DNA of 33,577 nucleotides from Alistipes sp. (GTDB taxonomy: Bacteria > Bacteroidota > Bacteroidia > Bacteroidales > Rikenellaceae): assembly GCA_017501025.1 (NCBI GenBank), contig JAFVXS010000246.1:1-33577 (forward strand). Direction: 5' to 3'. Shown in pieces: positions 5,919 to 26,317 of this stretch. Both the position numbers and the translations under genes were made by a program. Positions within the stretch are counted from its first letter, which is position 1. Each line of letters opens with the position of its first letter. The notes under the pieces are model-generated. The model searched no databases, was not told the origin of the DNA, and saw only the letters and a list, made by a program, of their open reading frames with translations.

Positions 5919-5944
5919 ATTTTTTCGTTTTTCGCTGTTAACAA

Positions 5945-6002
5945 TTTTTTACAGACCCCCTCCGCTTCGCTCGTCCCCCTAACTTCGGGGGACAATAGTT
6001 TT
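5945..6002 (-). repeat. REP-like double-hairpin repeat, copy 1
   Basis: ttttttacagaccccctccgcttcgctcgtccccctaacttcgggggacaatagtttt, identical to 6550-6607. Stem gtccccc/gggggac with a 7-nt loop. Confidence 0.9.
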
Positions 6003-6099
6003 TATTATCACAAGAGTTTGCCCTCCCTAAAAGGTTGTAGTTCCCAAAATGTTTTCCTCCCTAAAATGTTTTCATTTCCCAAAGCGGCTTTTCTTTTTT

Positions 6100-6150
6100 C
6101 TATTCCTCCCCCAAGTTAGGGGAGGTGCCCGTTAGGGCGGTGGGGTCTGT
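6100..6150 (+). repeat. REP-like double-hairpin repeat, diverged inverted copy
   Basis: ctatt-cctcccc-caagtta-ggggagg-t-gccc-gtta-gggc-ggtggggtctgt has the same layout as the reverse complement of copies 1 and 2, with compensatory stem changes. Confidence 0.85.
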
Positions 6151-6155
6151 TCGCC

Positions 6156-6539
6156 CTATTTTATATTCATCTTACGTTCCTTAACAACTCGCCGAATCTC
6201 TGCAATAACCTCCTCCGAATATTTATAAAGAGTGCTATTCTCGAAACGCAAAACTACAATATTGTGTTCGTTGCTCAAATATTCGGCACGACTCCAATCA
6301 TAGTCAGCACCACCTTCCGTATAGTGCACAGCTCCGTCCAACTCAATACACAGCCGTACTTCCGGACTGTAAAAATCTAAAATATAGGGTCCTATGCTAA
6401 ACTGCCGACGAAACTTAACACCCTCAACTTGTTTATCTTTCAACATTTTCCACAAAGCAACCTCCGCCGCAGTACTATTATTTCGCAGTTCTCTACGTTG
6501 TTGGCTTTGAGCCTTTTGATTATGCGTACGATGTTTCAT
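6156..6539 (-). CDS. DUF559 / YcjD-like (Vsr-like PD-(D/E)xK) endonuclease-domain protein
   Basis: RRELRNNSTAAEVALW, KFRRQFSIGPYILDFY, LCIELDGAVH and VLRFEN are hallmark DUF559 motifs. Visibly more AT-rich than the flanking genes. Confidence 0.92.
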   Translation of the reverse strand: MKHRTHNQKAQSQQRRELRNNSTAAEVALWKMLKDKQVEGVKFRRQFSIGPYILDFYSPEVRLCIELDGAVHYTEGGADYDWSRAEYLSNEHNIVVLRFENSTLYKYSEEVIAEIRRVVKERKMNIK

Positions 6540-6549
6540 CGCTGTTCTT

Positions 6550-6607
6550 TTTTTTACAGACCCCCTCCGCTTCGCTCGTCCCCCTAACTTCGGGGGACAA
6601 TAGTTTT
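6550..6607 (-). repeat. REP-like double-hairpin repeat, copy 2
   Basis: Exact 58-bp direct repeat of 5945-6002 (offset 605 bp), just upstream of the DUF559 start. Confidence 0.9.
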
Positions 6608-6715
6608 GCCGCCCTGCGGCAAAGGCTACACCGATAAGGGTTGTTAAGGGTTGTTAGCGGTATTCTCTGCCACCGACCTTACCCGACCTTATTCAACCTT
6701 ATCCTCGGCGGCTTT
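6605..6715 (+). repeat. Modular clamped tandem-array element, copy A (head + Z + Y modules)
   Basis: Head hairpin tttgccgc-cct-gcggcaaa; Z array taagggttgt x2; Y array gaccttaccc/gaccttattc/aaccttatcc between gccaccga and tcggcggc. Confidence 0.8.
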
Positions 6716-6736: not shown

Positions 6737-6853
6737 GTGAATAAAAAGATGAAGTTCAAGGCTTGCGAAACCCGAAAAACCGCAGCATACTTGCCGTATG
6801 TGAGGATTTTGAGGGTGAGCGTAACGCAGAAATTCGCTTTTTATTCGCTATCT
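6732..6853. mobile_element. MITE-like long imperfect hairpin element E1 (122 bp)
   Basis: Terminal inverted repeats agatagtgaataaaaag / ctttttattcgctatct (16/17). Nested internal stems around catac-ttgcc-gtatg. Mobility is inferred. Confidence 0.65.
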
Positions 6854-6860
6854 ACTCCCG

Positions 6861-7994
6861 CTATGCGTTCTGTACACTCTTCGAGTAGTTATCCCATCGC
6901 TCGATGACCGTTGCAAAATCTGTCGGAATAGGCGACTCGAAGGTCATCTCCTCGCCGGTCGTCGGATGCACAAAGCCCAACATTCGGGCGTGCAGGGCGT
7001 GACGAGGCATTATCTCGAAGCAATTTTCGATAAACTGCTTATACTTCGAGAAGGTTGTTCCCTTCAAAATCTTATCGCCACCATATCGCTCGTCGTTGAA
7101 CAACGGATGACCTATATACTGCATATGAACACGAATCTGATGCGTACGTCCCGTTTCGAGTCGGCACTCGACCAACGTCACATAGCCGTAGCGTCGCAGC
7201 ACTTTGTAGTGCGTCACGGCGTGCTTACCCTCCGAGCCGTCGGCAAAGACATACATCTGGTGGCGATTACGCGGATTACGACCGATATTGCCCGTAATCG
7301 TACCCTCGTCATCCGCCAGATTACCCCAAACCAACGCCACATAGCGACGACGTGTAGTATGCTCGAAGAATTGGCGTGACAGTTTGTTGCAGGCAACCTC
7401 ATTCTTGCCGACAACCAATATTCCCGATGTATTTTTGTCTATACGATGCACCAAACCCGCACGCTCGTTGCCCTGCTGGAACATCGGATTATCCTGCAAA
7501 TGGAAGGTCAGGGCATTAACCAACGTGCCACAGAAGTTGCCGTGTCCCGGATGAACGCACATTCCCGCCTCCTTGTTTACGACAATCACATCGTCATCCT
7601 CGTAGAGGATATCTATCGGAATATCCTCGGGTGTAAGTGCCACCTCGTAGCGTGGGTATGCCATACGCAACGAGATTTGGTCGAACGGTTTAATCTTGTA
7701 GGAGGCCTTCTGCGGGCGGTTGTTCACAAAGACATTACCCTCGTCGATTGCTGTCTGGATGCGATTGCGGGAGCAGTTCTCCATATGCATCGACAGATAC
7801 TTGTCGAGTCGCATCATCGACTGACCCTTATCAACCGTCACCGCAAAGTGTTCGTAAAGTCCGTGTTCGTCGGGGGTATGATCGCCCAAAAAACGACGAG
7901 GCTCCGCGGCGACAATATCGTCATCGTCGTCGAGCATCGCTCCTTCGTCGATATCTACCTCCGCATCGACCAATATATCCTCCTGATACTCCAT
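6861..7994 (-). CDS. rluD: RluA-family 23S rRNA pseudouridine synthase (RluD-like)
   Basis: S4 domain (RLDKYL..SRNRIQ), VVNKEAGMCVHPG, catalytic VHRIDKNTSG, LETGRTHQIRVH, ALHARMLGFVHP. Acidic N-terminal extension. Confidence 0.92.
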   Translation of the reverse strand: MEYQEDILVDAEVDIDEGAMLDDDDDIVAAEPRRFLGDHTPDEHGLYEHFAVTVDKGQSMMRLDKYLSMHMENCSRNRIQTAIDEGNVFVNNRPQKASYKIKPFDQISLRMAYPRYEVALTPEDIPIDILYEDDDVIVVNKEAGMCVHPGHGNFCGTLVNALTFHLQDNPMFQQGNERAGLVHRIDKNTSGILVVGKNEVACNKLSRQFFEHTTRRRYVALVWGNLADDEGTITGNIGRNPRNRHQMYVFADGSEGKHAVTHYKVLRRYGYVTLVECRLETGRTHQIRVHMQYIGHPLFNDERYGGDKILKGTTFSKYKQFIENCFEIMPRHALHARMLGFVHPTTGEEMTFESPIPTDFATVIERWDNYSKSVQNA

Positions 7995-17324: not shown

Positions 17325-17416
17325 TATCGTAGGCAGCCGATGTGGCTATCGCCGATACGACATTTATGACGACGCTTTGCTTTACGACGGCGGGATTACA
17401 GCCCTTAATAACGAGT

Positions 17417-17512
17417 TTGCTGCTTTGCAGCAACGGCTTTGCCGATGACGGTTGTTAAGGGTTTTCTGCCCGTCCCTAAACTCGCTAACTTCTCTAAACT
17501 CCCTTCACGGCA
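17417..17512 (+). repeat. Modular clamped tandem-array element, copy B (head + short Z + X)
   Basis: Head hairpin ttgctgc-ttt-gcagcaa then cggctttgccga; gacggttgttaagggtt; X array tccctaaac/tcgctaact/tctctaaac/tccct between tgcccgt and acggca. Confidence 0.7.
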
Positions 17513-23355: not shown

Positions 23356-23543
23356 CGAAGGGAGTTTAGGGAGTTTAGAGAGTTTAGGGAATTTAGAGAG
23401 TTCAGAGAGTTCAGAGAGGGCGACCAAAGCCGCCGAGGATAGGGTCAAATAAGGTCAAGTAAGGTCTTTTAAGGTCAGATAAGGTCGGCGGCGGGAAACA
23501 CCGCTAACGCCTCTAACGGCTCTAACGCCCCTAACACCCCTTA
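23356..23543 (-). repeat. Modular clamped tandem-array element, copy C (inverted; Z + Y + X)
   Basis: On +: agggagttt-type 9-mer x6+ (23359-23418); taaggtcnnn 10-mer x5 (23440-23486) between gccgccga and tcggcggc; ctaacgccy-type 9-mer x4 (23504-23539). Confidence 0.88.
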
Positions 23544-25853: not shown

Positions 25854-25869
25854 ACTTTTTTTTATTTTT

Positions 25870-26121
25870 TGCGGCAACAGCTTCGCCGAAAAGGGTGATT
25901 AAAGGTGATTAAAGGCTGTTAATGGCGTTTTCGGCAGCCGCCCTTACTCGACCTTATCTGACCTTACCCGACTTTACTTGACCTTATTCTCGGCTGCCGC
26001 CGTGGTCGCTCTCCCTAAACTCCCTAAACTCCTTAAATTCCCTAATCTCCCTATTGCGGCGCCGCCTTTGGTCGCCCGTCCTAGTAGTCCTAGCTGTCCT
26101 ATTTGTCCTATTGCGGCGACC
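25870..26121 (+). repeat. Modular clamped tandem-array element, copy D (head + Z + Y + X + W)
   Basis: tgcggcaacagcttcgccga; aaaggtgatt-type 10-mer x3; gaccttannn 10-mer x5; ctccctaaa 9-mer x5; gtcctannn 9-mer x4; GC-rich inverted linkers. Confidence 0.9.
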
Positions 26122-26138: not shown

Positions 26139-26182
26139 TGACCATCGCAACAAACCCGTACGAAGGAGGCAAAGAGCTTATA
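26139..26182 (+). repeat. Partial (right-arm) duplicate of element E2
   Basis: 41/44 identical to 26262-26305. Confidence 0.85.
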
Positions 26183-26191
26183 CCTCAACCC

Positions 26192-26317
26192 CTAAATCGA
26201 TTTTAGAAGAGGCTTTGCAACGCTCTCGGGATTGGGGCGGTGGGAGCATACTCTCTGTATGTGACCATCGCAGCAAACCCGTACGAAGGAAGCAAAGACC
26301 TTATAAAATCGATTTAG
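26192..26317. mobile_element. MITE-like long imperfect hairpin element E2 (126 bp)
   Basis: Perfect 14-bp terminal inverted repeat ctaaatcgatttta / taaaatcgatttag; nested stems around catac-tctct-gtatg; right end overlaps the dapD stop codon. Mobility is inferred. Confidence 0.65.

What the first reader, a model, noticed from the sequence alone, without database searches (positions are those of the whole stretch)
5945..6607. DUF559 nuclease cassette bracketed by REP-like repeats: candidate RAYT/REP-analogous element using a different nuclease fold
Seen: a 127-aa, AT-rich DUF559 gene is flanked by inward-pointing inverted copies of a ~50-bp GC-rich motif, ending 16 nt before its ATG (6556) and 5 nt past its stop (6150). 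A third copy (5945-6002) is an exact 58-bp direct repeat of the upstream copy, 605 bp away. Recombination between the direct repeats would excise a 605-bp circle (gene + inverted copy + one repeat) and leave a single repeat ahead of ygiQ. Established: REP sequences are normally paired with HuH Y1 RAYT transposases, whereas DUF559 has a Vsr-like PD-(D/E)xK fold and no assigned mobility role that I know of. Inference: the nuclease recognises and spreads these hairpins, and the exact repeat points to a recent insertion. This is one of the two best candidates in the window for an undescribed system.
Basis: partly seen in the sequence, partly recalled or inferred. Interest (0 to 1): 0.78.

Follow-up and report, generated by a model that had tools for sequence, protein, structure and literature searches.

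The report
Triplex-repeat-flanked DUF559 nuclease cassette
A small predicted DNA-cutting gene sits between short repeats predicted to fold into a three-stranded DNA knot, the same pairing recurs across bacteria and beside E. coli ycjD, and the enzyme is likely the missing partner that spreads these long-unexplained repeats.

Summary
The repeats are not REPs. They have BoxC/intrastrand-triplex architecture: a hairpin plus a mirror-image third strand. That fold flanks 63 of 80 homologues against 2 of 61 distal controls, and 21 of 30 independently picked loci against 1 of 25. The third strand covaries with the stem. E. coli ycjD (38% identical) lies 168 nt from a published BoxC copy.

The rluD-ygiQ spacer lacks the cassette in 15 of 15 scorable congeners. 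The protein has a Vsr-like fold with no HUH motif or conserved tyrosine, so it is not a RAYT.

The unit needs correcting: the gene-less element is a two-type doublet (5951-6150 here), and the 58-bp repeat is a common terminal redundancy, not evidence of a recent insertion at a single repeat.

Against: this genome shows almost no spread, and in two high-copy relatives the doublets ride in an unrelated MITE. That the nuclease mobilises the repeats is inferred (about 55%). No searchable paper links them. This scan reported the pairing on other DNA before (118 notes).

The parts
6156..6539 (-). DUF559 (YcjD-family, Vsr-like fold) endonuclease gene, 127 aa; conserved D55, E66, D68, H72, D81, R84
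6550..6607 (-). Upstream type-A repeat, core 6556-6599: 7-bp hairpin 6578-6598, 9-nt linker, mirror third strand giving 6 predicted triplets; the purine strand is the minus strand; tail faces the gene
6105..6150 (+). Type-C repeat: 7-bp hairpin, linker holding a 4-bp hairpin, mirror third strand giving 7 of 7 predicted triplets; the purine strand is the plus strand; tail faces the gene
5945..6002 (-). Third copy, type A, core 5951-5994; exact direct repeat of 6550-6607
5951..6150 (.). Gene-less C-A doublet (200 bp) with a perfect 9-bp terminal inverted repeat at 5951-5959 / 6142-6150; the same doublet stands alone at many sites in congeners
6003..6104 (.). AT-rich doublet spacer with a degenerate 34-bp tandem unit (6008-6041, 6042-6075); one unit fewer in run X1 and one more in run X3
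5932..5944 (.). Extension of the direct repeat (matches 6539-6549 with a 2-nt gap): the duplicated unit includes the leader up to the DUF559 start codon
4143..5918 (-).
6861..7994 (-). Host flank: RluD-type pseudouridine synthase gene

Best explanation
This is a DUF559 gene set between BoxC-like repeats predicted to fold into intrastrand DNA triplexes, and the encoded Vsr-fold protein is likely the cognate nicking enzyme that, with host repair, would copy the gene-plus-repeat unit and gene-less repeat doublets to new sites. Shown: the association, the two repeat types, the doublet, patchy sites, terminal redundancy, the conserved predicted active site and the absence of HUH/Tyr. Inferred: the G-rich strand folds when single-stranded (for example at a replication fork); the protein binds the fold and nicks beside it; lacking a catalytic tyrosine it cannot hold and rejoin ends, so host recombination or slippage completes the copy and leaves partial tandem duplications such as the 58-71-bp repeat here. 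It moves rarely and then persists vertically, as described for RAYTs.
For: A structure-only detector finds the fold within 200 nt of 63 of 80 homologues (67 with one mismatch), against 2 of 61 distal windows and 1 of 1600 shuffles. In 30 Pfam-picked loci it finds 21 of 30 against 1 of 25. Third strands mirror their own stems in 115 of 280 strand-wise hairpins; swapped tails give a mean of 40 and a maximum of 55, and the parallel reading gives 49. The base facing a stem A is A 63, T 58, G 14, C 11, as purine-motif triplets allow. E. coli ycjD is 38% identical (E 1.5e-16) and lies 168 nt from TMECO no. 9 of PMC4666352. In the genus, 12 of 13 genomes with a full-length DUF559 match carry the pattern against 32 of 187 others; in the order, 24 of 73 against 19 of 127; kin are not independent. 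The site is empty in 15 of 15 scorable congeners. The 13 close homologues in this genus occupy about 9 different intergenic sites. The closest one (79.5%) is doublet-gene-doublet at another locus. In-frame cassettes sit inside long host genes that look like tRNA synthetases and restriction-modification subunits (identified by eye). dN/dS is about 0.06 against the closest homologue. E66, D68 and H72 are conserved in 39 of 39. Repeat linker type clusters on the protein tree: 9 changes against 21.7 shuffled (shows clustering only).
Against: No binding, cleavage or movement has been shown. This genome has no A- or C-type copy away from the locus and only two copies of another subtype (58% complete). 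In G059 and G129, two of the three highest-copy congeners, the doublets examined lie mostly inside an outer element with its own inverted ends; 3 of 9 such elements have an exact 8-9-bp flanking duplication and 2 more have one mismatch, so another transposase probably amplified them. G188 (14 matches) and G067 (7) have no DUF559 found. At order level, 18 of 43 pattern-positive genomes have no DUF559 match, and 49 of 73 gene-positive genomes lack this narrow pattern. 17 of 80 homologue loci have no perfect motif. Repeat orientation around the gene varies, and no fixed target site or element end was found. PMC4666352 found no stable triplex in vivo or in duplex DNA. Shared sites across species show long vertical residence.
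Confidence: 0.55

Rival explanations
1. The nuclease recognises the repeats but as a repair or clean-up enzyme: it resolves the triplex or hairpin replication blocks. The repeats spread by slippage and by unrelated transposases, and the gene hitchhikes between them.
For: Doublets ride inside an unrelated MITE-like element in G059 and G129. Repeat-rich genomes without a detected gene exist. A non-DUF559 gene is also bracketed by such repeats in G270. Vsr is a repair nickase (PMC3239194). Purifying selection and single copy fit a host function.
Against: A repair gene need not sit within 200 nt of its substrate in about three quarters of loci, occupy about 9 sites in one genus or insert in frame with repeat ends into long host genes.
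Confidence: 0.25
2. One reading: a 605-bp circle (gene, inverted copy, one repeat) recently integrated at, or excises from, a single resident repeat.
For: The exact 58-bp repeat. The duplicated unit is permuted among loci (A-gene-C-A here; C-A-gene-C-A in G134; C-gene-C-A in G001 and G129), which a circular or concatemeric intermediate could give. Unitigs cannot exclude a circle.
Against: No congener spacer holds a single repeat. The redundancy here includes the gene's own leader, and in L001, G104 and G358 it includes gene ends, which points to tandem duplication with later loss. DUF559 lacks any recognised recombinase residue.
Confidence: 0.1
3. The repeats act as RNA (terminators or stability hairpins) and DUF559 acts on RNA, like RAP-domain proteins of the same fold.
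For: Foldseek ranks mitoribosome proteins next to 3hrl and 3r3p (their RAP identity is recalled). The type-A hairpins score as terminator-like on the antisense strand.
Against: Covariation fits a purine-motif triplex, which PMC4666352 says cannot form in RNA. The same paper cites no promoter or terminator activity for the E. coli copies. No Rfam match. Orientation to the gene varies.
Confidence: 0.07
4. The duplication is an assembly artefact or the association is chance.
For: The genome is a fragmented assembly (265 contigs). No public contig spans the whole locus.
Against: Run X2 has one contig from the third copy through the gene to the upstream copy (5973-6578); X4 bridges gene and upstream copy; X14 and X15 bridge ygiQ and the third copy. 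The same layout occurs in another species. Controls are near zero.
Confidence: 0.02

Closest known systems
BoxC / PIT / TMECO intrastrand-triplex repeats (Holder et al. 2015, PMC4666352; seen: passages, sections 16, 18, first part of 20, Table 1; supplement not searchable)
   Same: C-rich stem, loop, G-rich stem, linker and mirrored G-rich third strand; intergenic; inverted pairs always join two different types; one copy lies beside ycjD.
   Different: Stems are 6-7 nt rather than 9; the linker is 9-13 nt with an extra hairpin rather than 3 nt; the sequence does not match the TMECO pattern. The paper reports no mobility gene near the motifs and its main text was not returned by the ycjD or DUF559 searches.
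REP / REPIN / RAYT (Bertels and Rainey 2011, PMC3337134, abstract and section 5; Di Nocera et al. 2013, PMC3733652, passages)
   Same: One short gene flanked by hairpin repeats; gene-less inverted doublets elsewhere; heterodimers; usually single-copy gene under purifying selection.
   Different: Vsr-like fold, no HUH motif, no conserved tyrosine; no GTAG tag; three-stranded rather than simple hairpin ends; cassettes also insert in frame into genes.
DUF559 / YcjD / NGO0050 (PF04480, PDB 3hrl; Steczkiewicz et al. 2012, PMC3424549, passages)
   Same: Sequence and fold (E 1.7e-15; Foldseek E 1.5e-7).
   Different: No function or repeat link is given in the passages seen; the clade is listed there as 'No HGT observed'.
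EDxHD homing endonucleases, I-Bth0305I (Taylor et al. 2011, PMC3239194, passages; PDB 3r3p)
   Same: Vsr-like catalytic domain that drives mobility by cutting and host repair (Foldseek E 3e-3, TM 0.62 by query length).
   Different: No N-terminal NUMOD DNA-binding domain, no intron or intein; the gene is tied to its own folded repeats rather than to an intronless allele.
Caulobacter CIR and rhizobial RIME repeats (CIR seen only through Delihas 2008, PMC2229807, passages; Chen and Shapiro 2003 not held; RIME recalled)
   Same: About 110-bp intergenic two-arm repeats joined by a linker, mobility unexplained.
   Different: Sequence relation not tested here. I recall that Chen and Shapiro noted a small conserved ORF between separated repeat halves; this could not be checked and would be partial prior art.

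Membership tests
DUF559/YcjD | PF04480 above the curated cut-off | tested here: met
   99.6 bits against 20.6
DUF559/YcjD | Vsr-like fold with conserved acidic and histidine residues | tested here: met
   AF2 pLDDT 89; Foldseek 3hrl E 1.5e-7, 3r3p E 3e-3, Vsr 1vsr only E 0.85; D55, E66, D68, H72 in 39 of 39
DUF559/YcjD | Nuclease activity | not testable with these tools
   No assay; none found in the papers searched
RAYT / IS200-605 TnpA | HUH motif | tested here: not met
   No HxH in the catalytic region; the script found no H-x-H anywhere. No PF01797 hit in the protein or in the 58%-complete genome
RAYT / IS200-605 TnpA | Conserved catalytic tyrosine | tested here: not met
   Y52 in 13 of 39, Y57 in 25 of 39, Y80 in 13 of 39; their invariance reflects the search peptide
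REP / REPIN | Gene flanked by repeats, with gene-less inverted doublets elsewhere | tested here: met
   Met in congeners; not seen elsewhere in this genome
REP / REPIN | Unpaired GTAG or CGTC end tag | tested here: not met
   No GTAG; type A contains CGTC but GTC is paired in the stem and type C lacks it
BoxC / TM intrastrand-triplex repeat | Hairpin plus mirrored purine-rich third strand | tested here: met
   7 of 7 triplets in type C, 6 in type A; covariation across loci
BoxC / TM intrastrand-triplex repeat | TMECO sequence pattern (9-nt stems, 3-nt second loop) | tested here: not met
   Pattern against the sequence: same architecture, not TMECO itself
BoxC / TM intrastrand-triplex repeat | Triplex formation by CD or NMR | not testable with these tools
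   ViennaRNA cannot model triplexes; it gives the hairpins only
EDxHD homing endonuclease | N-terminal NUMOD DNA-binding domain; intron or intein host | tested here: not met
   127-aa single domain, only PF04480, free-standing intergenic gene
DDE insertion sequence / MITE | Terminal inverted repeats with a fixed short target duplication | tested here: inconclusive
   9-bp inverted ends on the doublet, but no duplication beside them here; duplications occur only around a separate outer element in some congeners

The most novel reading that the evidence does not exclude
DUF559/YcjD proteins are the mobilising enzymes of an undescribed, pan-bacterial class of elements whose ends are single-strand DNA triple helices: a 127-aa Vsr-fold nuclease reads a three-stranded shape rather than a sequence, and spreads both its own cassette and gene-less BoxC-type doublets without any HUH, DDE or tyrosine chemistry.
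Probability: 0.45. Interest if true: 0.9.

Novelty: new variant of a known kind. Interest (0 to 1): 0.72.

Why it matters
BoxC repeats have been known since the 1990s without an origin or partner enzyme; the fullest study seen found no mobility gene beside them (PMC4666352). DUF559 has no assigned role in the papers searched. Tying the two gives a direct test in E. coli K-12 with ycjD and its 23 triplex motifs. If true, it would add a new chemistry for repeat-based mobile DNA, a biological role for intrastrand DNA triplexes, and possibly a very small structure-specific nuclease. This locus adds a gut Bacteroidales subtype with two fixed end types and a defined doublet.

Tried and rejected
Runs X14 and X15 have contigs on both flanks, including the ygiQ-to-third-copy junction, but no cover over 6188-6483. 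No contig joins across the gap, so this is not counted as evidence of a gene-less allele; it is only worth checking with raw reads.

Circle junction or excision: only unitig contigs were available. They end 30 letters into the repeated copy, so they cannot tell an integrated cassette from a circle plus one repeat. Short joints at 5991-6001/6095-6103 and 6606/6099 carry other letters between their sides and most likely come from doublets elsewhere.

Rfam: 0 matches at E up to 5. Two-strand folding z-scores are weak (-1.2 to -2.6), so plain hairpin stability does not explain the conservation.

High copy number in G059 and G129 was rejected as evidence for DUF559-driven spread. An IS1595-type partner for that outer element (end motif recalled) was not found in 5 genomes. 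A cleavage site from half-hairpin junctions: only two related examples, both in G104, break at the start of the loop; too few to use.

The 7-nt detector misses type A, so its counts are lower bounds. The order-level pattern is narrow. The control for the direct-repeat count used windows with different spacing. Four of 19 congener loci held only one flank gene and were dropped; in three further genomes other genes lie between the flanks, with no DUF559 hit.

Literature: ten searches found no paper linking DUF559 or ycjD to BoxC or triplex repeats. Chen and Shapiro 2003 is not held, and the Holder supplement, which lists flanking genes, could not be searched; both may bear on novelty. Also read as passages: PMC1189080 (YcjD related to Vsr) and PMC12817139 (ycjD stands where eefRABCD is missing). 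Place look-ups of earlier notes were empty. No complex prediction was sent.

Full report
Observation. The coordinates are right. A 127-aa DUF559 gene lies at 6156-6539 on the minus strand between an RluD-type and a YgiQ-type gene. It is AT-rich: GC 0.41, GC3 0.375 against 0.57-0.62 in its neighbours. The 58-bp repeat at 5945-6002 and 6550-6607 is exact, and with one gap it runs on to the A of the start codon. The inverted copy at 6105-6150 shares the 9-bp end and the hairpin layout but is a different sequence type.

Anatomy of the repeat. On its G-rich strand each copy reads: C-rich stem, 7-nt loop, G-rich stem, linker, second G-rich tract, short end. The second tract is the mirror image of the G-rich stem: 7 of 7 positions in type C and 6 in type A. 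This is the layout of a purine-motif intrastrand triplex, as described for E. coli BoxC/TMECO (PMC4666352). I tested it across homologues. Hairpins were collected without regard to the tail; 115 of 280 strand-wise entries (each hairpin is counted on both strands) had a perfect mirror tail. Swapped tails gave a mean of 40 and a maximum of 55 in 2000 rounds, and the parallel reading gave 49. Rare stem classes keep their own tails: 7 of 13 against 4 of 267 for one, 10 of 24 against 7 of 256 for another. With the register fixed on G positions only, the base facing a stem A was A 63, T 58, G 14, C 11. Related loci inflate these counts, but the pattern holds in separate classes. The triplex itself is predicted, not measured.

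Association with the gene. Of the 80 best of 566 homologue loci, 63 have the fold within 200 nt of the gene and 40 on both sides. Distal windows gave 2 of 61 and shuffles 1 of 1600. Thirty loci chosen by Pfam score across the order gave 21 of 30 against 1 of 25. E. coli ycjD is 38% identical. It has a degenerate copy at its stop and, 168 nt downstream, TMECO no. 9 of the published table. In 200 congeners, 12 of 13 genomes with a full-length match carry the pattern against 32 of 187 others; the reversed control pattern hit 4 genomes. The one exception is a distant 31% match. Across the order the figures are 24 of 73 against 19 of 127. Kin are not independent.

Mobility. The rluD-ygiQ spacer is 945 nt here and 21-158 nt, without gene or motif, in 15 of 15 congeners where both genes fell in the locus. 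Thirteen close homologues in the genus sit at about 9 different sites, and several sites are shared by two or three species. So the cassette moves but then stays. In the order set about a dozen copies sit in frame inside long genes, with repeat-encoded peptides at both ends. The gene is under purifying selection (dN 0.11, dS 1.9 against G134; dS is near saturation).

The unit. In congeners the two types occur as gene-less doublets of about 130-190 nt, hairpin to hairpin, with the 9-bp ends outermost. Here 5951-6150 is such a doublet. The closest homologue (79.5%) is doublet-gene-doublet at another locus, the doublets 99% identical over 163 nt. This locus is the same layout minus the upstream C half. 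Direct repeats of 40 nt or more straddle the gene at 33 of 117 loci, against 0 of 106 imperfect controls. Some include the gene's own start or end, and G358 also duplicates about 45 bp of the downstream host gene. The 58-bp repeat is therefore best read as terminal redundancy from partial tandem duplication. Orientation around the gene varies: tails inward on both sides in 23 of 80, hairpins inward in 6, mixed in 11.

Reads. Eight runs from eight studies were laid, all as contigs; one may be the window's source. Six cover the gene. One contig runs from the third copy through the gene into the upstream copy; others bridge two of the four junctions by the 31-letter rule. The 34-bp spacer unit varies in number. 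No record spans the locus.

Protein. The model (pLDDT 89) matches NGO0050 (3hrl) and the catalytic domain of homing endonuclease I-Bth0305I (3r3p); Vsr itself scores weakly. D55, E66, D68, H72 and R98 are invariant in 39 sequences not chosen by the search peptides. There is no HUH motif and no conserved tyrosine. Vsr-type enzymes nick DNA, and I-Bth0305I spreads by cutting followed by host repair (PMC3239194).

Mechanism and counter-evidence. The most likely reading is a cognate nickase that recognises the folded single strand and relies on host repair to copy cassettes and doublets (0.55). The steps from association to binding, nicking and spread are inferred. Against it: this genome shows no other A or C copy; the doublets examined in G059 and G129 ride mostly in a separate MITE-like element with 8-9-bp flanking duplications; G188 and G067 have repeats but no detected gene; a different gene is bracketed by such repeats in G270; and the published work saw no stable triplex in vivo. 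A repair role with hitchhiking is the main rival (0.25).

Novelty. The repeat class and the protein family are each known. Their pairing was not found in ten searches, and the main paper states that no mobility gene lies near the motifs. An older paper that I recall may mention an ORF between related repeats could not be read. It works like REPIN/RAYT but fails that family's defining tests, so I class it as a new variant of a known kind. I reached the BoxC/triplex reading before opening earlier notes; the scan holds 118 matching findings on other DNA, which are not independent support.

Noticed in passing
window 6738-6834: A separate repeat of about 96 bp that folds as an imperfect hairpin; about 18 loci in this genome and many copies in congeners; no Rfam match; partner unknown.
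   Followed up: partly
window 6605-6715; also 17416-17470, 23426-23508, 25860-25997: A second repeat family: a short GC hairpin plus 10-bp tandem units, about 15 loci in the genome. It abuts the upstream type-A copy where the C half is missing, and abuts a type-A copy in G067.
   Followed up: partly
L148, L162, L167-L172, L185, L187 (G059, G129, G188): A MITE-like element of 158-184 nt with 13-bp or longer inverted ends and 8-9-bp A/T-rich flanking duplications that carries the triplex doublet, or in L185 a different hairpin cargo; no IS1595 transposase found in 5 genomes.
   Followed up: partly
G000 C194:250-290 and C212:1955-1990: Two solo triplex motifs of a short-linker subtype elsewhere in this genome, one within a tRNA-gene-like tandem region; a partial tail at C14:3131-3150.
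   Followed up: no
L118, L128, L129 (G104): Tandem truncated cassettes in which the gene breaks off and joins exactly at the start of the type-C loop, a possible cut or slippage point.
   Followed up: partly
L229 (G358): Doublet-gene-doublet with about 45 bp of the downstream host gene start and about 22 bp of the DUF559 3' end duplicated on the left side.
   Followed up: partly
L225 (G270): Arrays of the same repeat class bracket a 155-aa gene that is not DUF559.
   Followed up: no
L196-L199, L201, L202, L204, L206, L210-L212, L216, L222: DUF559 cassettes inserted in frame in long genes that look like IleRS, ValRS, LeuRS and restriction-modification subunits, with repeat-derived peptides at the ends (host names by eye).
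   Followed up: partly
window 17473-17506, 23357-23433, 25996-26053: A third small repeat family of 9-bp tandem units in intergenic spacers.
   Followed up: no
window 26139-26182 and 26262-26305: A 44-bp direct repeat at 93% identity, 123 bp apart, just downstream of the dapD-like gene.
   Followed up: no
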